Source of the DNA: Basidiobolus ranarum
Taxonomy: Eukaryota
Direction: 5' to 3'
DNA length: 33,789 nucleotides
NCBI GenBank assembly: GCA_040143965.1
Contig: JASJQH010000070.1
Location: forward strand, 1 to 33,789
In this document: positions 2,379 to 27,565 of the stretch, in pieces
How the letters are laid out: every line of letters begins with the position of its first letter
How positions within the stretch are numbered: the stretch's first letter is position 1
Program-made: the position numbers and the translations under genes
Notes under the pieces: model-generated
What the model was told of the DNA's origin: nothing
The model's database searches: none
What the model saw: only the letters and a program-made list of their open reading frames with translations

Positions 2379-3398
2379 TTATGGTCTGTGAAGGATACTT
2401 CTCCGGGTAGGTTTTCCCGGAGTTTCCTTAACTTTCGCGGGCTTAGCTGACATAATAGTAGAGTTTGATGCAGAGCAAGGCTGATCGGTTATTTCGTCAC
2501 CATTGATCTTTATGTCATTGTAACTAGGAAGAACCACTGGAGTGCTCAATTTCAGGTTCCCGGTACTTAATAGAAATTCTAAATCACTCACGCGGTTTGC
2601 CGATTCTGGCCAAATATCATCCATTCTACAGCATAATATTCGCTTTCTAAAGTGGAGGAACCTTTTGAGGAACGTCAGTTCAGTCTGAGCTTTAGTCGGC
2701 TCCGCTCTAACCATCTTAATTATGCTTCTTAAGCTAATACCATCGTCTTTGTCGTAGCCATGTTGCACCGCCGTATCATAAAATATGGATTTTCCCAGAG
2801 GGGAAAGAACCTTGTATGACTCGGCCAGTTTCATGGCCGGTTCAAAATACATCTCATTCGTCACTGCTTCCTGCACCCTTTTAAATTTAGAATCGGTGCA
2901 GGCTACTCGTCTCCAAGCTTCGGGAAATCCACTTAACTTCTTCGGGTCCACTTCCGGACCTCCACACTCTCTGGGATCCGCCAACTCTTTCAGAGGTACA
3001 TAATACGTCTTCAGTTCGCTATTAGGATTGATTTGTAAATATCTATTGATTACAGTAAAGACATCCCCTGTACCTGTAGTAAATCCCACGAGGCCGCAGG
3101 TATATCCTCTAGAGTCGTTGAGATCAACACACGATTCGTAATCGTAAGTAGTAGTGCCATATTCAAATACATTTGTAATAGTGAATATCAATGTATTTAT
3201 AGAGTGGTTGAACGGGATAAAATTTCCAGTAACCGGCATATTGGCATGCTCCTCACAGTTTGTCGATTTTGCTCTATATAAAGGGCATTCTTTATGGTTT
3301 TTGGAGTACTCGCCAACGCAATACTCTAACGCTTCACTTTTTGTCTTTAGTATACCAATACTAGCTATTAGTAATATCCTGAAAAGAATGTTCTTCAT
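2379..3398 (-). CDS. Secreted chitosanase, glycoside hydrolase family 46
   Basis: Intronless 339-aa ORF with an N-terminal signal peptide (MKNILFRILLIASIG). It carries the GH46 signature ITNVFEYG...LNDSRGYTCGLVGFTTGTGD, with the catalytic Glu and Asp in place, plus YFEPA and FYDTAVQHG. Confidence 0.88.
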   Translation of the reverse strand: MKNILFRILLIASIGILKTKSEALEYCVGEYSKNHKECPLYRAKSTNCEEHANMPVTGNFIPFNHSINTLIFTITNVFEYGTTTYDYESCVDLNDSRGYTCGLVGFTTGTGDVFTVINRYLQINPNSELKTYYVPLKELADPRECGGPEVDPKKLSGFPEAWRRVACTDSKFKRVQEAVTNEMYFEPAMKLAESYKVLSPLGKSIFYDTAVQHGYDKDDGISLRSIIKMVRAEPTKAQTELTFLKRFLHFRKRILCCRMDDIWPESANRVSDLEFLLSTGNLKLSTPVVLPSYNDIKINGDEITDQPCSASNSTIMSAKPAKVKETPGKPTRRSILHRP

Positions 3399-4084
3399 AT
3401 CAGGTGTGAAACTTCGAGTGTAGATTCTACTAGCAAATTAAGGAAAAAAGTTTAGAATCTAAACTATTAAGGCTGACCTAAGAATTGAATGTATTATATA
3501 TACAAGTATAGATGTATGCGTCTTAAATATAATGGAAGCATTCATCCTGTTTCAGGGAATTTTACAGCAAAATACCAGTCCAATAATAATGCAGATTTTA
3601 TCAAGGAATTGCCATGAGTAGGAATGTTCAGCACAGGAAAGTTATCTTCCTTGAATATGAATAGAAAAACTCCTTACAAAATGAGTCGCTAGTGGAGAAT
3701 AATAAAGCTTATATTTAACGAAACAAATACACGACCATTGTATTCTCATTTTGATGACAACGCCATGTCCATATCTGGGTGGCTTTGAAATTGATTTCCA
3801 GTGTGGAACATTGATTAAAAGGATCTCGAATTTGTTGACGCCATTCCGCAGACATTGAAAATGCTAGGACAGCTCAGGCTATGGCGATGATAGCTACGGT
3901 GATGATAGTGGAAATGGTAGTGGTATGTTTAATATAATTTTTAGAGTATCCCAACGGTTTGGAATGTACATACTGGTTAAGATAAAGTGTGAATAACCGG
4001 CTCAAATGTAGGGAAAACACCCAAAATAACAAACACATAAAGGTAGTTCATGGTAAAAACTGTGCTTGGAAGTTGCTTTACGAG

Positions 4085-6542: not shown

Positions 6543-8383
6543 ATGTACCACGAACCTTACGACGAAGAAGATGTTGCCGCTGATGTTGATTTGGTTGCCG
6601 GAGTCTATGCTCAGGGCGACATGACAGCCGATGATGATATTTTAGAAGAAGGTAACCACGAACTACATATATGTGTATAATTAGGCCAAGATGTATGTAC
6701 CCATGTACTGACATTGCTTCATTTTAGAACAAGTATTGATTCAACAACAGCTTGCTCAACAATATGTTGATACCCAAATTCCTGATGTCGTCAAGAACTT
6801 CATTGCTTATTTCCATCGTAGTCTTCGTGAAAATTCGGTTTATGAACTTCATTCCATTTATGAGAATACTTTCAACAAATTGACCGACAGATTTTACGCC
6901 AAGGAGGCTTGGCCCGAGGCTGAGTATATCGCACCTTTAGTCAACGATGGTGAGCATTATTAGAGTTATCATATTTCGTGAAATGATATTTATTCTCGGG
7001 CTTTCCCCATGTAGATCAAATCTTCTTGACCTTGTATCGTGAGTTGTATTACCGTCATATATATCAAAGACTCCAGCCCACCATCGAGCACAGATTCCGC
7101 TCATATGAGAATTACTGCGCTCTATTCAACTACATTTTGAGTAAGCTACATGCTATTTTAAGAAATACCCCCACATGCCCTGGAAATTAATACTTGTCAT
7201 TTTAGACTCTGATGGTCCTGTTAGTCTTGAACTCCCTAACCAGTGGTTATGGGATATCATTGATGAATTCATCTATCAATTCCAATCTTTCTGCAACTTC
7301 AGAAACCGCATCAAGAACAAGACTGAAGAGGAGATTTACTTGTTGAAAGAGAATCCCCAAGTCTGGAGCTGCTACAGTGTTCTCAATGTCTTGTATTCTT
7401 TGATTCAAAAGTCACGCATCACCGAGCAACTACTTGTCAGCAAGAATGGTGGTGATATGGTTGAAGCCGCTGGGGACTATGGCTCTCGTACTTTGTACAA
7501 AATGCTTGGTTACTTCAGCATTGTTGGCTTACTTCGTGTCCACTGTCTTCTTGGAGACTACACAATGGCTTTGAAGATGATGGAGAACATCGAGCTCAGC
7601 AAGAAGGCTTTGTTTGCTCGTGTTACCGCATGCCACGTTACCACCTACTACTATGTTGGTTTTGCTTACATGATGATGAGAAGATATGCCGATGCCATCA
7701 AGGCTTTCTCCCATATTTTGGTGTTCATTACTCGTATCCGTCAAGTTCACTCCAAGTCTTATCAATTCGATCAGATCAACAAGAAGGGAGATCAAATGTA
7801 TGCCCTTCTTGCCATCTGTGTTGCCCTCTCCCCTACTCGTTTGGATGAGAGCATCCACACACACATGCGTGAGAAATACGGAGATCAATTATCTAAAATC
7901 CAACGTGGAGAGGATCCTATCCAAACCATTGAGGATCTGTTCGTGTACGCATGCCCCAAATTCATCTCTCCTATTGCTCCTAGCTACGAAGATTTGGAAA
8001 GCAACCCAGCTGAGCCCAGTGCCCATCAGACCAAGATCTTCATGTCTGAAGTTCGCAAGCAAATCTTGATTCCCACCCTTAGATCCTACCTCAAGCTGTA
8101 CACCACCATGAGCATTGAAAAGTTGGCCACATTCCTTGAAGTCGATGCTGAAGAGCTCCGTACACAATTGATGATCTTCAAGCAGAAGAGTCGCCAAAGA
8201 AAGTGGGTTGAGGGCACATTATTAGACTGTGAAACCATCACCAGCACCGATTTAGACTTTTCAGTTAACATGGACATGATCCACATCGCTGAGAGCAAAG
8301 TAGGACGTCGCTATGGTGATTGGTTTATCCGCAACATCCACAAGTTCGAAGATATCATCTCCAACATGGAGCTTCGTGCTTAA
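6543..8383 (+). CDS. EIF3L: Eukaryotic translation initiation factor 3 subunit L
   Basis: Exons 6543-6651, 6728-6949, 7015-7140 and 7206-8383. Conserved blocks: [61 protein letters not shown] and RRYGDWF. Confidence 0.95.
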
Positions 8384-11894: not shown

Positions 11895-12792
11895 ATGCAC
11901 CCTTCTCGTTTTTTCAAAGTAGCTGCCATTTTGGCCACCACTTTCCTCGCGACCACCTTTGCTGAAAGTTCGGTTGAGTGCCCAGCTAAAGTAGCCGTTG
12001 TTTTAAACAAACAACAGGTATATTTAGTTATTTTTTGATTGAGTTTTCACGTAACTCCAGTTGGTTAATATGGTTTATTTTTCGGCAGACTTCCGAGTAC
12101 ATTGATTCACCACACTTCTCTCTACACAAGGTAATTATCTACCGTGTTTAACTTTATTTTCGACCCTTCCTTTTTCTGACTTGTTTATTTCATTTTAGCG
12201 TATGGTCGGTCAAGATGTAGCTCATTCCGATAACATCGAACACTTTAAGAGCAATTGTGCCGCTGAACATTTGGACTTTACCGAGGGTAAATTTTCCACC
12301 ACTTACTTTTTAAACGAGATTTTACTTACGTGAAAATTATTTATTTAGTGAACAAGTTGAAAGAAGGAACTTCATATGTCATCAGTGGAGCTGGAGGTAA
12401 TAATAACATATGCATGATATGAACCAGAAGTATTGAACTATTTACCAATGAAAATGATATTGATTTTTTTAGAAGCTCTTGATAAGGCATTAGAGCATAT
12501 TCATAATACCGTTCAAGATTATGTTGTTGTTTTAGAACATCAAGCACACTTACAAAAACGTCAAGAAGTTGTTCCCTCCCCCACTAGTACTAATAATCCA
12601 GGTCCTACCACGAATCCCGGACAAAATCAAACTCGTGCTGAGCAACTTCGTAGTAAATTTTGGACGGTTGGTCTTCTTACCGGTTTATTAACCACGGTGA
12701 TTTTGGTTCTTATCCTTTTGGTCGGTATTTGTTGGTTAGCTAGTATCGAAGGACCTACTAGATTTGAAAATGTTAAACAAAAGAGAAATTGA
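11895..12792 (+). CDS. V-ATPase accessory/assembly protein, VOA1/Ac45 (ATP6AP1/BIG1)-like
   Basis: Exons 11895-12017, 12089-12130, 12199-12286, 12349-12396 and 12473-12792 (206 aa). It has a signal peptide, a luminal region with a KR dibasic site, the C-terminal TM segment FWTVGLLTGLL...GICWLASIEGPTRFE matching the Ac45/Voa1 TM domain, and a KxKxx tail (KQKRN). Confidence 0.75.
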
Positions 12793-13053: not shown

Positions 13054-16000
13054 TTATAATAATTGATAAATCATCTCCTTATTACGATCTGTGATTAATC
13101 CTTTGATCTTTTCGAATAATTCGAGTACATTAGGATGAACCTCTTCCGAGAATACGATCGATTCTATGGTGACTAAAGATCCGGCGATTTGTTTACGATA
13201 CTACGTTCCAAGTATTAGTTAATTGTTTAAATCAACGGGGGGAGTTAGGTATTAAAGGGTCTTACCAATCTTCCTACTGCGATAAACAATCCAGCTATCC
13301 ATTTGTAAGACCAATCGTTGGTTACTTCAATTCCATTGCTATCACACTCCACAATCTTCTCTGTTAAAACCGTGACGAATTTCTGTAGGAGTGAAATGGA
13401 GAAAGAGGTAGGTGAGTGAATGATGAATTGATAATGAATGTTCTAACCATTTCCTACCTCAAATACCGCCAAGAATACTTCTTTCTGTTCACGATAAACC
13501 ACGCTTAAAGTGGATTCCAAACTACGAATGTGTTCTGGGGTGGCGTCATCTAAATGAAAGGATAACTGAATGAATGGTCTAGTCTTAGATAGATACTGGA
13601 ATTGTCAATACCTTTTTTGGCCGAGTCCACCTTGATTTGAACCAAGTCGACACGGGAGATTACCTTGTTCAAGGTATTTTGAAGAATCTCCAATTTATAA
13701 GCTCTACAAAGGAGGTTTAGTTATTGTGGAATTGTGAAATGAAGTGAGTTCTACAATTTACCTATCTGCAGTTTTACTTAAATCTCCAAATATCCATGCA
13801 ATAATGGATGTAGGATCAACAATACGATAATTGAGTAATTTATCCAACAGAATCCCCAAGAACTGATAGTGGAGGAATTTCATGGTGTTTAGTGATGATC
13901 TCGATGTTGATTTCGTAGTGGTTGTTTCATTACCTGTGTGTTATGTTTCCAACAGGATGCCACAATCTCGATAGCGGTGATTTTATCTTCTGCGGTGGCC
14001 GCGTGCTTTTGAAGAATTGCCAAGTATCTAATGACATGTATATTGTTTAGATGGAATGTATGCTTGTTTACGCAACGCATCTCTAATTCTTACCTTTCTA
14101 TCACATTTAAGGAATGACTGAAACTCTTACTACCAACCATCAAGACGCACTGCATGACAATATCGAATTTCAATGAAGTGGTAGCCTTTTCGTCGAGTTC
14201 TGCGCCATTCATAGGAACATATGCATTTAGAATCTCTTGGATATCGTCAGAGGATGCCTTGGCTCTGATCTTCTGAACTAAAGTGGATACCAAATTATTC
14301 AAGCCTTCATCTGTTATTTTCATTGATAATTCTAGTGAGTTGCAAATTCAATCATGATCAAAATAATCTCTCTTCCGTACCTGGTCCTGGTGTTTGGTAT
14401 TTAAAATCAATCCCCGGAGCAGCTGGTGGGATCATTGGTAAGAAATCTTCGGGAAGAGTTCCCTTGACGCGTTCATAATAAGACAACCTGGCCAAGGTAA
14501 TTTCAGGTTAGATCGTATCAAAATTGTCACACAGCTAAATGTCCAAGTACTTGATAAGTTTCTCAAGGCCTTCACGAATAAACACGTATTTAGGGGATGC
14601 TTTGTCTTCCTCTAACTGAGCAGACCTAAGAGATGGTGTATGGATCAGCATAAATCAAAATCAACCGAACCACGATTCTAGTAGTAAACCTACCAGTCAC
14701 TCCAGTTCCAGATAAATCCGAAATTACTCAGATGCATGGCAAACCAGTCATAAAATCTATGCACGCACTCTACATCCATGGTATTTAACCGATCGTAAAT
14801 TGTCTTGGTGGCTCTACCTAAGTAATACCGAGTCAAGGCCCTTAAACATTGGTTTCTAGTGATTGTTGAGTTCGAAAAAAAAGAACCATGTGGTATAAAA
14901 AGGATATCGAAAGTGGGAATGTATCAGGTGCGGCTTTACAAAGCTCAGCCATTAATGAAGTATAATAGACTTGCTTAAACTGGGGTTCCGGTAGTCGGAA
15001 TATGTAAGCAAAGATTTCCTAGATACCAACAGACACATCTATTGAGTCACATGGGTTAGGGTTAGATAATCGAAACATTTGAATTACCTCAATGATGGCT
15101 TCTTGGAGTCGACACTTCCAAGTTCCATCTTCTTTATCTTCCTCCATCTTATCTCCCTCTGTGGCTGCCTTCTTCTTGTCCTCCTCATCTGGCTTGGGAG
15201 GACTTTGAACAAACACATCATTGTTGAACCCATACTGGACATTCACGAGGTATTTGATACATTCTTTACGATTCACCTCATATATGTGAATAGTCTCGGA
15301 GATGATCTCATGAAGTAAATAACGGGTAATAGGATATGTGTAAGACTTTGCCAGCTACAGGGAAAGATCAAAGGTTAGTCAAATAAATGGAAAAGTATAA
15401 AGGAATAATCCTGAGCTAGTACCTCTGGATAATCTCCATCATAAAGCTGGAAGACAATGCGTGGAAGGGGATAGGTCATGGTTGGGGTTTCTTTGGGTAC
15501 TTCTAACACAGGAAGGTCATGCTAGAGGTAATGGGAATGTCAGTAATGCCAGACATCGAACAGTTGAATCCTCCAATGCATTACCTGTTGAGCTCCACCA
15601 AGGATATTTTCAAAGAAAGTGAAAGGTTGAACCAAAGTATTGATCTAAATAAACCGCGCTATGTAAGTGGCACATTTCAATACAGTAAGAATATACCATG
15701 CTACAAACCTCCCAATCCTGATCTTTGAGAGCACTGATTTGGTCCCAAAGAACAAAAAGCATCTAAGGTGAAATAAGGTAACAAATATTTAGTGGGAAAG
15801 GTAAAAAGAGGCACTAATCAAACAATAAAAGTACCTCTTTTTGCTCATAAGCAGGGTTTTCTTTATACACAGAGATAACCTCTAGGGATGAGAGGTCATA
15901 GGTTTCTTTGCGCTTCTGCATGTACTTGTCGAGAACAGACACAATTCTCATGAAATCGTGAGGATTACGATCACAGATACCGCGAGCAACCTTTGTCAAT

Positions 16001-17036
16001 TTAAATGATACGTTAGCAATTGCCTGAATAAAATAGTATTACACTCGTAGACACATACCCAAGGGAGAGAGGACATCACAATCCACACGTAGCAATCTGC
16101 GCGATCCTAGAGGCAAAATTGCTTACTATATTATCAAGATACGATGGAAGATTTACGAGTAGTCGAAACAAAAGTTACCTGCTTAATGGGACTCTCACTC
16201 AAAACGCTTAACAAGTTATCGTACAGAATGATCAGTGTGGTTGGCAAGATAACATTTGCGTTAACCAATTCACCGAAGAATCGAACCTTTGAAGGTAATA
16301 AAAATGAATGTGAGTATATTTAATTCAAGTATCTACCTGTAGATGAGATAATTACTGTTAATTTGGCTTTAAGCCACTCTCCTTGCTCTAAATATTTGGT
16401 AAGATGTTCAAAGCATGTCTTTACGATAGAACTTCCAATATCGTAATTCTTGGCGTTGAGTAGACCTGAAAGTGCACCATAAATGGCATTCTTCATAGGA
16501 AGCTCGGTGACACTTCATTTTAACAGCAGTTTAAAATTAGTAGTCTTACGTGTATAGATATGTAATTTCTAGCCTACCAAGACATGATTGTCGTCAAGAT
16601 TCCCTCCGAGTGTTTCGAAAAATCTCTCTCTAAAATCCCAGTCAAGGCCTCAAGATTCGCTTGGAGTGTATTGGTAGCCTAGTAAGCATAAATTTAGATC
16701 TATATATTACTAGAGGTGAATGCCTTAAAGAAAACTTACCTTATCTCCGACGCGAACAATCAGGGATCCTAAACGTTTCTCAATGTCTTCTACCTCATCG
16801 AGTCTGGAAGAAGGTGGTGGGCCTCTATTTCTCTTTCGATCGTGATAATCACCTAGTTAAAACGCGAGTGATCACCTTTAGTATCTCGTCTGACTCTAAT
16901 CTATTCTTAACTTGATATACTTTACCCCCTCTAGGCCGTCTACCATGTCCTATTATTATTATTATATTAAGTAAGTTTGAAAGGAAAGGAAAGGAAGGGA
17001 AATACTGGAAAGTAACCTACCTCCTCTATGTTCCAT
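13054..17036 (-). CDS. NCBP1: Nuclear cap-binding protein subunit 1 (CBP80), about 20 exons
   Basis: ATG at 17036. The spliced product contains RLGSLIVRVGDK, CVTELPMK, VRFFGELVNANVI, YYTSLMAELCK, LSYYERVK and VGSKSFSHSLNVIER, with the TAA at 13054-13056. All introns are GT-AG except one AT-AC intron (14822-14907). Confidence 0.92.
14822..14907 (-). other. U12-type (minor spliceosome) AT-AC intron in CBP80
   Basis: 5' end ATATCCTTTT, branch-like GGCCTTGAC with its A about 11 nt from the 3' end, and 3' end TATTAC. Removing it joins PDTFPLS to LGRATKTIYDRL in frame. Confidence 0.9.
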
Positions 17037-17678: not shown

Positions 17679-20600
17679 ATGGCTTATTTAAAACGCGGTG
17701 ACCAGTCTTCGTGGGTAAATGACGCGTCTTTGGAGGCCAACGAAGAGATATCCCCAGAACATCTGATAAAATTTTATGGACTTTCCAATTCGGCCACCAA
17801 ACCCTACTGTCCGAATAAATATTCCCCACGAGTCACAGTGGACAAGAAAACTCGGTGTATTATTTCACGTTGTAAGGAGCTTCCGAATTGTTTGAACCAT
17901 CTAGGTCAAGAATTTTGGGAAAGAGAGGGTGGGTGTCGGGTAAAATGGCAGGGATGTTTAGAAATTTTATGAGATGATAAAGGTTTTGCTAACCGAAGTT
18001 ATTTTCTCTTCTTTTTTTTCGTGGGTGGTTTCTTTTATGAAATAAGACTCTTTTGAACAGTATTGTCAAGTAAAAGAATTGTCTATTAAGCATACGGAGG
18101 TGCGTAATCGCTTGGAAGGAAAGCCTGTTGGTTTGAAGGTATTTCTCTTTTGCATATGTCCTAGTATTTTACAATACCACACTTATCCTTTTCACCTGTT
18201 AGAATCTAGGGGCCACATGTTACGTAAACTCTTTGTTACAGGTAGGTGATAGGATGTTTGGTGAATTTTGCTGTATATTGACATGCAAACCATAACAGGT
18301 CTGGTTTCACAACCTAAATATCAGAAGAGGAATCTACGAGTTTCAACATAGTGAAGTGAAGGTAATCACTAGATTGAACTCCACGTGTGCCATTATTACT
18401 AAGCAACATTTCTATGATGTGAAGAACCCTATATGCTATCAACTTCAAAGGGCCTTTGCCTTCTTAGAATACGGAAATCAAGATACATACGACCCCGTTC
18501 AATTCGTAGAATCACTTGAGTTGGATGCTGACGAGGAACAAGACGTCCAAGAGTATGTGATGGTGTGAATTAAGTAAAGAAAGAGATATTCGTTAACATG
18601 AAGTGATTTCAGATTTTGTAAACTTTTCACTTCACTTCTCAACAGTGTATTTGAAACACAGGAAAGAGAAAACCTCAGGAACCTATTCAAAGATCAGGTA
18701 TTTATCTCAGTAAAGGGCCTTCAATCCATCCAGTGTATTCATGAATTTACCTCAGTTTGAAGGAGAATATGAGTACGGAACCAAATGCTCCAAGTGCAAA
18801 AACATCTCTCAGCGTAGGGAAACCTTCCACGAACTAGAGCTAAACATTAAGGTTCCTTCTAAAAAGTGATTGCATTCATTCTTTCAGCTAATCCATTCTT
18901 TATAGGATAATTCCTCGTTAGAACAGTGCATTGAACGTTTCTTGAAACCAGAGATGATGAGAGGGGATGATCAGTACGTTTCCGTTTTCACTTCTATTTT
19001 CACCCCCCCCTTTTATTCCAATTCATTTTGAGTGTTTACTTGATGTTCGAATATCAGGTACTTTTGTTCCGAATGTGACTCGAAACAAAATGCAACTAGA
19101 ACCACCAGAATTAGTGGATTACCAAACGTAAGTTACTATCCATATGGACAAGAGTATCCGTCGGGTTCTGTTTAAATTCCCCTTTGTGTATCCTTGTAGG
19201 TTTTAAACGTTCAATTGATGCGGTTCGTTTATGACGTTAAGACTTTGACCAAGAAGAAGAACAATGCCCGAATAAGGTTCCCAAGAACTTTGGACGCTCG
19301 TATGCTACTGAATTCATTACAAAAGAAAAGAAAGCCTGCTTCGACAGAGGAAAGTAAAAAGACCTCGCTGGAGCAAAAACGAAAGAGAGGTAATGACGAA
19401 GAGTTAGTGGATGGCAAGTCGGATCGACAAAAAGTCCCACTCAAACCTACCAGAAAGAGTGCAAAAGATGAGAACAATAAACCAGTGACGGAGGTCGAGG
19501 AATTCATAAATGTAACTGACATCGAGGATGCTCTCAGTAGTCATACTTCATCTACTATTGGTGAAAATATTATTGATGTTACGACTCTTGACGAAGATGT
19601 AACTCGTAGCGGTCAATCAGATTCACAAAGCACTTGTACTACTCCCAACAGGCGAGGTAGAAGCAAAGCAAAGAGTTCTTCCAATAATAGCATGGAATCT
19701 GAGGACTCGAAATCATCACCAACTGGTAAGCGTGAATCTATTCGAGTTCAAAAGCAAATCGCAAAGTCCCTCAAAAAATCCGATCAAGACATTGATGTGG
19801 GAGTAGAATCTCATATTAATGATGAGCAACTCACCTCGGAACCTGCCCACGTGACCCCGAAACGACGGAGGCGTAAGAGTACACAAAATCTAGCAAATCA
19901 TATGGAGATTGATCAAGTAGACGCCAAACCAGAACAAGATCAGAGTTTTAAAGAAGAGAGACCCTCCTCTTCTGAGTCTACCGACATATCTAGTCAATGT
20001 CAAGCAAAGAAAAGACCTCGGAAACAACAGAAGATCAACGATACGGAAGCTGAGCTAGTCGCTGATATAAAGACAGAATCCGTGGAGGAAAACGAGGAAG
20101 ATTGCGTTTATGACTTGACAGCCGTACTTACTCATGAAGGACCAAGTGCGTATTCGGGACACTATGCGGCATATGTCTTCGATACTGGTAAACAATGTTG
20201 GTTCAAGTTCGATGATGAAAAGGTGACCAATGAAGGACCTACACTCAATCTTCAAATCCCCACCGAGAGTAAGCCAAGAAAGAAAAAAACTGCAAGTTCA
20301 GAGACGGCTGCAACTGACGAAATGGACGTGGATCAAGCAGAAAGTGAGAGAAATCATTGCTCCTCACGTGACGCATACATGCTCATTTATACCAAGCGAA
20401 TGATGGAGCAGCCACAGGTTGTTCGGCCGATGGAGATAATTATGAAAGAGGTGGAGCAGGCCAATCACCTGGCACACCAAGAGGCTCATGCACAGAACAA
20501 ATCCCTCCTCTCAGCCAAAGAGGAGTTTGACCGCGAGAGGGAGAGTAGACGGGTCATCTACTCGAAATGGAATGTTGTTGAGGAGAACGAATATTCTTAC

Positions 20601-22103
20601 TTCTTTCCAAGATCACTGTTACAGGATTGGGTCAGAGGTGTCTTCAAACAATCGGAAGGGTCCAGTCCGGAATCATCTGCGCACACGGCCCTAGATCTCA
20701 GCTGTGATCATGGTAATCTCGACCCATATCAAATGAAATTGGTCAAAAGAGTGAACAAGGTAAGTTGATTCCATTGCTCTTCATTCGTTCACATGAGTAA
20801 CCCAAGTACTTAGGTTTGTAGTGAGCTTCTCACACAACAACACCCTGAATGGAAGCAGGTATTCAACTCGGATCAATTGTGTCGGGAGTGTGCTCTCGAA
20901 TTCCTCAAAGAAAAGCGATATCAGGCTCAGCACGCTAAAGACATTCAAGAGTTTGAAAAAGCTATGAAGACCAAATCCGAGGAGCAATACCTGATCTCCA
21001 AATCATGGGTAAAAGAATGGTGTAAGAAGACTCCAGGGTTCGATTGGGAGGATATTTCTAGTGATCCATATCCAGAGCACGAATTGTACGGTCTGGATGT
21101 GAGATGCACCCATGGCGGTGTCTCCTTGGATCTTTCCAACTCCAAGCAAATCACCCAGAAGGCCATGGAGTTCTTAGTGAGACTGTTCCCCAACTATCAG
21201 CCACCAAGTGAGTCTACAGCGCAATGTGAGCAGTGCGTCAAGGAGCATGCGAATGGCAAACAACCTTCCGTGGAGATGCTGAAGAAAGCTGAGGATGAGA
21301 GAAATCAATGCAAGCATCTTGTCACACAAAGTCGAAAGGATCTAACGATTCTCTCTGATTCCACTTACTTCATCATCGACAACACCTTCATTCAAGAATG
21401 GAGAAGCTTCGTTCGGAACCCCGAAAGTAAACCACCCCCGGAGAAGTTCAATAACAGCTTTCTCTTCTGTAAACATGATAAACTTCATTATGACTTTTCG
21501 GACCCAATTGATCAGATCGTGTTGAACAAGATCTCCTTCGTTACGGAGCTCGAATGGCGCATATTCAAGTCAAATTACCTCGGTGGCCCTGAAGTCCAAT
21601 TCCAAAAACCTATGGTCGAGGATCAGTTGATATATGAAACCGTACCTGATGTATGCCCCGAATGCTTGGTAAGTAGACGGCTCGACTTTCAAGAGGCTAC
21701 AGTTCATATCTGTCGAAAGGAAGAAAATAATCACTTGGAATCCTCGGATGAAGGGGGGAAGAAGAAGGCGATCAACTCGGTTCGTGGAACTCGTACTCGA
21801 GCCTCTCAAAGGTCCAAATCCAACATTCGAACTCGAATCACGGTCAGAAAAGCGGATACAGTCAAGGATATTAAAGTGAAGATCATGGATAAACTCAACA
21901 TCAGTCCACTATATCAACGTTTGTATTTCCTGGATCAAGAACTTCTGGATAACGATGTTAGTGTTCGTGAACTTGGAGTACTACCCAATAGTCAAATCTA
22001 TCTCACCGAGATTGAGCCTATTGATGACGAAGAGGAATCTTGGGAAGATCAAATATCTAAAGGGGAAGAAACCGGGTTTAAAGGGACCAGCTTATTGGCT
22101 TGA
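17679..22103 (+). CDS. USP48: Ubiquitin-specific protease USP48-like (catalytic domain, DUSP repeats, C-terminal UBL)
   Basis: N-terminal PNCLNHLG, Cys box GLK|NLGATCYVNSLLQ (Cys codon 18218-18220), EQDVQE, LMRFVYD, His box YDLTAVLTHEGPSAYSGHY and WFKFDDEKV. C-terminal features are the CxHG DUSP-type segments, a ubiquitin-like domain and the ETGFKGTSL end. Multiple GT-AG introns. Confidence 0.88.
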
Positions 22104-22436: not shown

Positions 22437-23842
22437 CTAGCTTCTTACTCCAAGGGGATTTTTAGAGTAACTTAGGCGTATTCCACCTTTAACAGAATTG
22501 CTCAGAAGATGCCCCTGAAGCTCATGAAGAGTGTACGACGCAAACTGGATGTCGTCAAACTCTACAAAACACATTGGTCCAGCATGAGGTTTCATACGAA
22601 AGCAAAGTCTTTTATATCCGGGCTGAGTCGAGAAAAGTTGACGTAATTCTTCCTCCATAGTATTCATGGGTAAATTGCCGACATAGAGTGTGTTGCAAGG
22701 AGGGTTTTGATCTCCAGAGTTGACCCTGAGCGTAGGTGGCATACATGATGAAATGGAAGTGGGTGAGGGTGAGGGTAATGAAGTTGAGATAGTAGCTTCG
22801 GCTCCTGTGCCCAAGTTGAATGGTGAAAAATCCGAGGTTGGTGAAAGGTTTGTATTACCTCCAAACAAAGTACTATGTTGACCAAGTGAGGTTGAGATGG
22901 AAAATTTGGGAAAGGAGAAAGAATTGTCGATTCCATCAAAGGTCGCAGGAGCTGTCATGGAGCGACTAGGATTGTATCCAACAACTCGCGATGCGGTCGC
23001 TCCTAACATACTCGATATGTTGATATCTTCCTGCATCTCTAGTAACTCGTCGTCATGAGGAGGTGAAGAGGATACAAGGCTAGAGGTTTCATAATCCATG
23101 TTGAATTCGTGAATTGGGGGCTGAGGAGAGGCAAGTAGACCACTTGGAAGAATAGGGCCGCCAGGAAACAAACTATCATATGCTGCGTTGAGAGCCGAAT
23201 TTCCTGGAAATTTCTTCTTACCAAGGCTGAACGCACCATTTGGAGTCAACGCTTGTACGAGATTCATACTGGAATTCATAAATGCTCCTTCAGTAAGCAA
23301 CCCTCTCTTAATCAACAAGTTCTTTTTAGCCATCTCAGCCTTTAATAGACAACAGCGTTCAGTGTCGACCTTCTTGCCGCTCAGAATATCCCGTGCTTGA
23401 AGAGCTTCAAGTCTAGAGCGGAATTTCGCAAATCCGATCTGATATACAAATAAGAATTGATTAGTAAAAGTTTACGAAGGAGCGGTTATTATTAAAGCTT
23501 ACCGTTTGTTTACGGGTACCATCCTCAGTTTCATGGGTTTGAGAGACTTTAAGAGTGGCTGCTTCAAAACCAGGTGAAAAAACGAACATATTTTGGAACT
23601 CTCTCTCTAGCATATCCTCAGGGAAACCGATCACAAAAATTGTGGTAATCTCTTCACTTTGATTCATTTGTTGAGAATTAGAATTGAAAGTAGTGTAGGC
23701 GGGCGGGCGGATAGACGGTCTTTGTAAATGTGACTGCTGTAATTGAAATGATCCAAGCAACGATTCACTCAAGGAGGGTGGGATATGATGAGATACGATG
23801 GAATGGGATATGTTGTGATTTAAAGAAAAGGGAGGGTTCCCC
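22437..23842 (-). CDS. Whi3/Scw1-like two-RRM RNA-binding protein (5' end uncertain)
   Basis: The N-terminal [25 protein letters not shown] splices to IGFAKF. The C-terminal RRM reads [12 protein letters not shown]...GYKRLCFR...GPMCFVEF...[15 protein letters not shown]. The frame extends to an acceptor at 23842, and the first in-frame ATG in that exon is at 23667. No upstream coding exon was resolved. Confidence 0.82.

Positions 23843-24902: not shown

Positions 24903-27565
<2,663 letters not shown>

What the first reader, a model, noticed from the sequence alone, without database searches (positions are those of the whole stretch)
14822..14907. U12-type AT-AC minor intron in a fungal CBP80 gene
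Seen: an 86-nt interruption (not a multiple of 3) in a conserved helix. It begins with the exact U12 donor ATATCCTTT, has a CCTTGAC branch site about 11 nt from the end, lacks a long pyrimidine tract and ends in AC. Splicing gives ELCKAAPDTFPLS|LGRATKTIYDRLNTMD, and I found no in-frame GT-AG solution. Established: the minor spliceosome is lost from Dikarya but kept in some early-diverging fungi, and minor introns are enriched in RNA-processing genes. Inference: this genome encodes U11/U12/U4atac/U6atac, standard gene predictors likely mis-annotate this gene, and cap-binding complex levels may depend on minor splicing.
Basis: partly seen in the sequence, partly recalled or inferred. Interest (0 to 1): 0.8.

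Follow-up and report, generated by a model that had tools for sequence, protein, structure and literature searches.

The report
Minor-spliceosome intron in Basidiobolus CBP80
The cap-binding protein gene of the fungus Basidiobolus ranarum contains a textbook rare "minor" (U12-type, AT-AC) intron, but the public gene model already splices it correctly and this genus is already known to be rich in such introns, so the finding is correct and ordinary.

Summary
On the minus strand, 14907 to 14822, an 86-nt interruption begins ATATCCTTT, carries CCTTGAC with the branch A 11 nt before the 3' junction, and ends AC. The full motif occurs once in the window and in 0 of 100 shuffles. Removing it joins two pieces of Pfam MIF4G_like without a gap. 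Of 93 in-frame junctions it scores best against a profile of 18 non-Basidiobolus orthologs.

The window is a whole Basidiobolus ranarum contig. The NCBI protein "Nuclear cap-binding protein subunit 1" already uses exactly this junction, so the "mis-annotated" inference fails. "No in-frame GT-AG solution" is also not literally true: 13 exist, all worse.

B. meristosporus is published as the fungus with the highest minor-intron density, with U11, U12 and U6atac genes found. Mammalian NCBP1 is a listed U12-intron gene.

Earlier scan notes report known human U12 introns (GATD3A/B, DONSON), none in this gene.

Verdict: a real U12-type intron, a new member of a known kind, of low interest.

The parts
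13054..17036 (-). NCBP1/CBP80 gene (CDS with stop codon): 23 coding exons and 22 introns, encoding the 827-aa protein P0001
   Evidence: All 827 residues of the NCBI protein were placed on the minus strand: 826 by exact match, and residue 85 as a split codon. Pfam MIF4G_like and MIF4G_like_2 match the exon pieces. Human CBP80 PDB chains match at E 1.3e-132.
14822..14907 (-). U12-type AT-AC intron, 86 nt, phase 0, intron 13 of 22, between codons S438 and L439
   Evidence: It is the only non-GT-AG intron of the gene and the longest; the other 21 are 58-75 nt.
14899..14907 (-). 5' splice site ATATCCTTT
   Evidence: Read directly. It matches RTATCCTT.
14832..14838 (-). Branch-point motif CCTTGAC, with the putative branch A at 14833, 11 nt upstream of the 3' junction
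   Evidence: Read directly. CCTTRAY sits at intron position -17, and none of the 21 other introns has this motif.
14842..14844 (-). In-frame TAA that would end translation 21 codons into the intron if it were retained
   Evidence: Translation of the unspliced frame and ORF 14842..15018.
14908..15018 (-). Upstream exon (aa 402-438, ends ...DTFPLS)
   Evidence: Pfam PF09088 profile positions 75-106 match residues 2-33 of the piece; its last 4 residues reach position 110.
14694..14821 (-). Downstream exon (aa 439-481 plus 2 nt, starts LGRATK...)
   Evidence: Pfam PF09088 profile positions 111-153, E 2.5e-17.

Best explanation
This is a genuine minor-class (U12-dependent) spliceosomal intron of the AT-AC subtype. 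[quoted passage not shown]

Inferred mechanism, from established knowledge of minor splicing and not shown here:
- The U11/U12 di-snRNP recognises the 5' site ATATCCTTT (U11, later U6atac).
- U12 pairs with the branch motix CCTTGAC, with the A at 14833 bulged as the nucleophile.
- The short 11-nt distance from the branch to the terminal AC defines the 3' site without a pyrimidine tract.
- Excision joins ...TTTCG to TTAGG... and restores the reading frame through a conserved helix of the middle MIF4G-like domain.
- If the intron is not removed, the frame ends at a TAA 21 codons into it. Full-length CBP80 therefore requires this splice.
For: Shown in the sequence:
- The 5' site is an exact 9/9 ATATCCTTT. 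CCTTGAC has its A 11 nt from the end. The termini are AT...AC.
- The composite motif occurs once in 33.8 kb, on both strands together, and in 0 of 100 shuffles.
- In the same gene, 21 of 22 introns are GT-AG of 58-75 nt and none has CCTTRAY. This one is 86 nt.

Excision restores the protein:
- Excision joins Pfam MIF4G_like positions ...106(+4) and 111... without a gap.
- It gives a gap-free alignment to human CBP80, E 1.3e-132, and to 12 other fungal orthologs.
- Of 93 in-frame, stop-free GT-AG, GC-AG or AT-AC junctions, 14907..14822 scores highest (140.1 bits) against an HMM built only from 18 non-Basidiobolus orthologs. The next best scores 129.9 and the best GT-AG 116.8.

Annotation and literature:
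- The deposited NCBI protein and the B. meristosporus ortholog contain the junction peptide.
- The genus has a working minor system according to the literature. B. meristosporus has 249 (0.554%) or 237 minor introns, and U11, U12 and U6atac were found in zoopagomycote species (passages read).
Against:
- The minor snRNA and protein genes of this genome could not be searched, because no genome is held. The 34-kb window has 0 Rfam matches.
- The base before the branch motif is G (GCCTTGAC), not the T of the TTCCTTRAY consensus quoted in PMC8848931.
- The intron is in phase 0, the phase that minor introns tend to avoid according to Larue & Roy.
- None of 80 metagenomic fungal CBP80 loci has an intron at this site. 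Most look ascomycete-like, so this says little.
- In B. meristosporus only a putative, divergent U4atac was reported.
Confidence: 0.9

Rival explanations
1. It is an AT-AC intron removed by the major (U2-type) spliceosome, not by the minor one.
For: Major-type AT-AC introns exist (recalled, not from a call). The minor snRNAs of this genome were not checked. Olthof et al. 2024 could find only a putative divergent U4atac in the congener and discuss flexible machinery.
Against: The 5' site is ATATCCTTT, the minor-class consensus. It is not the ATAAGT-like site that I recall for major-type AT-AC introns. A CCTTGAC branch motif sits 11 nt from the 3' end, and none of the 21 GT-AG introns of the gene has one. 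The genus is reported to hold U11, U12 and U6atac and more than 230 minor introns.
Confidence: 0.04
2. Transcripts use other boundaries, such as one of the in-frame GT-AG pairs, and the AT-AC match is a coincidence.
For: 13 GT-AG and 16 GC-AG in-frame, stop-free alternatives exist in the interval. No RNA data were available.
Against: The best GT-AG pair (14886..14804) has a weak donor (GTTCTT). It inserts 7 residues, deletes LGRATK and scores 23 bits lower against the ortholog profile. The composite U12 motif is not expected by chance, with 0 of 100 shuffles matching. Two independent annotations give the AT-AC junction peptide.
Confidence: 0.03
3. The 86 nt are an assembly artefact or an insertion in a decaying gene copy.
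For: The contig is short (33,789 bases) and no reads could be laid on it.
Against: The other 22 exons are intact and give an 827-aa protein that aligns end to end with human CBP80. The insert carries all three minor-intron signals at the right spacing. It has no other copy in the window.
Confidence: 0.02

Closest known systems
Minor (U12-type) introns catalogued in Basidiobolus meristosporus (Larue & Roy 2023, PMC10639083; Olthof et al. 2024, PMC11347168; passages read)
   Same: Same genus and same intron class. The B. meristosporus NCBP1 ortholog (P0002, 87% identical over residues 330-560) has the same junction peptide. Both papers classify introns by 5' site and branch-site motifs, and this intron has both motifs.
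   Different: This is B. ranarum, which I did not see named in the passages read.
U12-type intron of mammalian NCBP1 (Chang et al. 2007, PMC1874599, Table 1; Jacquier et al. 2022, PMC8848931; Olthof et al. 2021, PMC8034651; passages read)
   Same: It is the orthologous gene: human CBP80 aligns at E 1.3e-132 and without a gap across the junction. Both genes carry a minor intron.
   Different: I could not establish the position or subtype of the mammalian intron. A search for 'NCBP1 intron' found 0 papers. The Basidiobolus junction corresponds to about residues 390|391 of human NCBP1 in 1n52_A numbering. Whether that is the mammalian minor-intron site is open.
U12 intron of CBP20/NCBP2, the small cap-binding subunit, in land plants and animals (PMC5932401 abstract and passages; PMC8329584 passage)
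   Same: A minor intron in a gene of the same two-subunit complex. In plants its replacement or removal disturbs correct splicing.
   Different: It is a different gene and protein. No regulatory role has been shown for the Basidiobolus CBP80 intron.
Minor introns of Rhizophagus irregularis (Larue & Roy 2023, passages read)
   Same: An early-diverging fungus with about 205 minor introns, all four minor snRNAs and several U11/U12 proteins.
   Different: It belongs to a different phylum. NCBP is not mentioned in that paper's main text (0 occurrences).

Membership tests
U12-type (minor-spliceosome) intron, AT-AC subtype | 5' splice site matching /RTATCCTT | tested here: met
   ATATCCTTT at 14907-14899 on the minus strand.
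U12-type (minor-spliceosome) intron, AT-AC subtype | Branch-point sequence TCCTTRAY close to the 3' end (about 10-15 nt; the range is recalled) | tested here: met
   GCCTTGAC with the A at -12, 11 nt before the junction. There is one departure from the TTCCTTRAY consensus quoted in PMC8848931: G instead of T before CCTT.
U12-type (minor-spliceosome) intron, AT-AC subtype | Terminal dinucleotides AT-AC (or GT-AG) | tested here: met
   AT at 14907-14906 and AC at 14823-14822.
U12-type (minor-spliceosome) intron, AT-AC subtype | Removal at these boundaries restores the conserved reading frame | tested here: met
   Pfam contiguity. Best of 93 candidate junctions, 140.1 bits. Gap-free alignment to human CBP80 and to fungal orthologs.
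U12-type (minor-spliceosome) intron, AT-AC subtype | Spliced at these boundaries in RNA | not testable with these tools
The only indirect support is that the deposited protein uses the junction.
U12-type (minor-spliceosome) intron, AT-AC subtype | The host genome encodes U11, U12, U4atac and U6atac and the U11/U12-specific proteins | not testable with these tools
   No genome is held and the window has 0 Rfam matches. For the congener only: U11, U12 and U6atac at high confidence, U4atac putative.
U12-type (minor-spliceosome) intron, AT-AC subtype | Splicing depends on the minor spliceosome | not testable with these tools
   This needs an experiment.
[quoted passage not shown] | MIF4G plus MIF4G_like plus MIF4G_like_2 architecture and full-length similarity to CBP80 | tested here: met
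   PF09088 and PF09090 match the exon pieces. PF02854, PF09088 and PF09090 are precomputed for P0001. Human CBP80 chains match at E 1.3e-132 and yeast Sto1 (6n7p_X) at 7.3e-27.
Ancient NCBP1 minor intron shared with mammals (same position) | Same codon position as the mammalian NCBP1 U12-type intron | not tested
   The mammalian position was not found in the texts I could read. No animal or plant genomic DNA can be reached with these tools.

The most novel reading that the evidence does not exclude
The intron is not an inherited relic. It would be one of a set of minor introns gained in the Basidiobolus lineage, which would make the genus a second case of minor-intron proliferation. I recall Physarum as the first; that comes from no call.

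Hints:
- Larue & Roy note that the reconstructed ancestral minor-intron density of Zoopagomycota is low, while B. meristosporus has the highest density known in fungi.
- None of 80 other fungal CBP80 loci has any intron at this site.
- The intron is in phase 0, which is atypical for old minor introns.

Against:
- Most of the 80 loci look ascomycete-like, and that group has lost many introns.
- The intron has no second copy in the window.
- Mammalian NCBP1 also has a minor intron, whose position I could not compare.
Probability: 0.25. Interest if true: 0.45.

Novelty: new member of a known kind. Interest (0 to 1): 0.15.

Why it matters
It matters little beyond bookkeeping. It is a clean, high-confidence example of a minor intron in a second Basidiobolus species, in a gene (NCBP1) that is also a minor-intron gene in mammals. 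The partner gene, NCBP2/CBP20, carries one in plants and animals.

If the position proves the same as in mammals, it is one more minor intron preserved since the common ancestor of fungi and animals. If it differs, it bears on whether Basidiobolus gained minor introns.

It also shows that this record's annotation handled a non-canonical intron correctly.

Tried and rejected
1. Whole-genome search for U12 (RF00007). I did not try the other three snRNA families there.

2. Rfam scan of the window: 0 matches. This is uninformative for a 34-kb piece.

Table 1 of that paper is not in the held text. Supplements that I could not see may list the orthologous intron. These include the figshare data of Larue & Roy, Supplementary Tables S4 and S7 of Olthof 2024, and MIDB.

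5. Literature searches for the NCBP1 intron position:
- 'NCBP1 intron': 0 papers.
- 'U12' + 'cap binding' + 'Rhizopus' + 'Phytophthora': 0 papers.
- 'CBP80' + 'U12': 49 papers, 20 listed, none on a CBP80 minor intron judging by title or abstract.

6. Metagenome scan for CBP80 loci.
- 166 confirmed matches, of which the best 80 were kept.
- 80 of 80 read straight through residues 430-447 with no gap or stop.
- Only 2 U12-like motif pairs occur on the plus strand of all 80 loci, both outside the CBP80 match.
- Most loci carry ...APSLGRAIR..., like the ascomycete proteins P0007 and P0009. The set is therefore a weak test of ancestry.

7. Search for short ORF fragments that would reveal the same exon boundary in other organisms: no hit.

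8. Other RTATCCTT sites in the window (10 against 3.03 expected): none of the other 9 has a branch motif plus AC or AG within a locally typical intron length. Two long candidates (416-443 nt) lie where long open frames with Pfam matches run on the plus strand. I rejected these as chance.

9. AT-AG variant 14907..14818 (90 nt): it is 4 nt longer than the frame-restoring 86, so it would break the frame.

10. Introner-like origin: no second copy of the intron in the window or in the 80 loci.

Full report
**What is there**

Read 5'->3' on that strand, an 86-nt stretch (14907 down to 14822) has these features:
- It begins ATATCCTTT.
- It contains CCTTGAC at 14838-14832, with the A at 14833. That A is 11 nt upstream of the 3' junction.
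- It ends AC.

The composite pattern (ATATCCTT, 40-70 nt, CCTTRAC, 8-14 nt, AC) matches once in the 33,789-base window on both strands together, at this site. It matched in none of 100 dinucleotide-preserving shuffles.

The octamer RTATCCTT alone occurs 10 times against 3.03 expected. A scan of all such sites found a branch motif and a terminal AC at short range only here.

**The gene**

The exon pieces match Pfam MIF4G_like (PF09088) and MIF4G_like_2 (PF09090).
- The piece upstream of the interruption covers profile positions 75-106 with four more residues.
- The piece downstream starts at profile position 111.
- Removing the 86 nt therefore makes the domain contiguous.

A homology search showed that the window is a complete 33,789-base contig of Basidiobolus ranarum. 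NCBI holds an 827-aa protein from it, named "Nuclear cap-binding protein subunit 1" (P0001). Basidiobolus meristosporus CBS 931.73 has an 826-aa ortholog (P0002).

I mapped P0001 back onto the window. All 827 residues were placed: 826 by exact match, and residue 85 as a split codon. This gives 23 coding exons and 22 introns.
- 21 introns are GT-AG and 58-75 nt long.
- The thirteenth is the AT-AC intron. It is the longest at 86 nt and lies in phase 0 between S438 and L439.
- None of the other 21 introns contains CCTTRAY.

**Are these the right boundaries?**

I enumerated every GT-AG, GC-AG and AT-AC pair between 15018 and 14696 that keeps the frame open. There are 93: 13 GT-AG, 16 GC-AG and 64 AT-AC. 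I scored each product against an HMM built only from 18 non-Basidiobolus fungal orthologs, P0003-P0020.
- The junction 14907..14822 is the best, at 140.1 bits.
- The next best scores 129.9 bits.
- The best GT-AG pair (14886..14804) scores 116.8 bits and has a weak GTTCTT donor.

Further support for the junction:
- Human CBP80 chains in the PDB align to P0001 at E 1.3e-132, with no gap across the junction.
- The alignment with 12 other fungal proteins also has no gap there.
- An AlphaFold2 model (mean pLDDT 81.3, pTM 0.78) puts the junction inside predicted helix 435-448. This agrees with "in a conserved helix".

If the intron stayed in the mRNA, the frame would stop at a TAA (14844-14842) 21 codons into it.

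**Mechanism**

The three signals define U12-type introns: /ATATCCTT, a TCCTTRAY-like branch site, and a short branch-to-3' distance. The consensus TTCCTTRAY is quoted in PMC8848931. The distance range and the snRNA pairings are from my own knowledge.

I therefore read this as an intron recognised by the U11/U12 di-snRNP and removed by the minor spliceosome. That step is inferred, not shown.
- No genome is held for a search of snRNA genes.
- The window itself has no Rfam match.

Small departures from the ideal are a G instead of T before CCTT, and phase 0. Larue & Roy describe phase 0 as the disfavoured phase for minor introns.

The pyrimidine content of the 3' end (0.55) is not unusual for this gene, whose GT-AG introns range from 0.36 to 0.86.

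**What is already known**

From Larue & Roy 2023 (PMC10639083, passages read):
- Their criterion for presence includes at least two minor snRNAs.
- They find no convincing minor introns in Ascomycota or Basidiomycota.

From Olthof et al. 2024 (PMC11347168, passages read):
- They report 237 minor introns in B. meristosporus.
- They report high-confidence U11, U12 and U6atac in several mucoromycote and zoopagomycote species.
- They found a putative divergent U4atac in B. meristosporus only at a lowered threshold.

On the gene in other organisms:
- Mammalian NCBP1 is itself a listed minor-intron gene. See Chang et al. 2007, PMC1874599, Table 1; Jacquier et al. 2022, PMC8848931; and Olthof et al. 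2021, PMC8034651.
- The partner gene CBP20/NCBP2 has a well-studied U12 intron in plants and animals (PMC5932401, abstract and passages; PMC8329584, passage).

I found no paper that names a minor intron in a fungal CBP80. However, the catalogues for B. meristosporus probably contain the ortholog. I could not open supplements.

Earlier notes of this scan report U12 introns in human GATD3A/B and DONSON as known. There are none for this gene or genome.

**Comparison with other loci**

A metagenome scan with a 13-protein CBP80 alignment returned 166 confirmed matches. The tool kept the best 80.
- In 80 of 80 loci, one tblastn segment runs through residues 430-447 with no gap or stop. None has an intron at this site.
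- Only 2 U12-like motif pairs occur on the plus strand of all 80 loci (449,254 bases). Both lie outside the CBP80 match.

Most of these loci carry ...APSLGRAIR..., like the ascomycete proteins P0007 and P0009. The set is dominated by fungi that lack minor splicing, so it says little about ancestry.

Two further checks added nothing:
- A search for short ORF fragments that might reveal the same exon boundary elsewhere found nothing.
- The intron has no second copy in the window or in the loci.

I could not determine whether the site coincides with the mammalian NCBP1 minor intron. By the PDB alignment, the Basidiobolus junction corresponds to about residues 390|391 of human NCBP1.

**Verdict**

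The surrounding inferences are refuted, untested or speculative:
- Mis-annotation is refuted.
- The four snRNAs in this genome are untested here, and published only in part for the congener.
- Dosage control of the cap-binding complex is speculative.

Minor introns are published as abundant in this genus, the same gene is a minor-intron gene in mammals, and the public annotation already splices this intron. The finding is therefore a new member of a known kind, of low interest.

The boldest reading still open is that the intron was gained within Basidiobolus as part of a lineage-specific expansion. Testing it needs gene structures from outgroups.

Noticed in passing
window 2382-3437 (-): An uninterrupted 352-aa open frame matches Glyco_hydro_46 (chitosanase), E 1.3e-42. 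The neighbouring CBP80 gene has an intron about every 180 nt. I recall GH46 as a mainly bacterial family, and bacterial gene transfer into Basidiobolus is the subject of PMC7466969 (title and abstract listing only). It is a candidate horizontally acquired gene.
   Followed up: no
window, both strands: RTATCCTT occurs 10 times against 3.03 expected, and none of 100 shuffles reached 10. Only one site is a minor-intron 5' site. One other site (15607-15600, minus strand) is coding sequence of the CBP80 exon (...NILGGAQQ). The excess is unexplained and may reflect codon or dipeptide usage.
   Followed up: partly
window 7145-8380 (+); 12418-12789 (+); 19200-22100 (+); 22440-23471 (-); 24906-27540 (-): The neighbouring genes, by Pfam on stop-to-stop frames, are: Paf67/eIF3L, with a 412-aa frame without stops; Ac45/VOA1 transmembrane domain; a ubiquitin hydrolase with UCH, DUSP and ubiquitin-like domains; an RRM protein; and a CDC48-like double AAA ATPase. 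None is a recognisable minor-spliceosome component.
   Followed up: no
L001-L080 (metagenome CBP80 loci): All 80 fungal CBP80 loci read straight through the position of the Basidiobolus minor intron. Only L030 (41% identity over residues 32-822) looks like a closer, intron-containing relative.
   Followed up: partly
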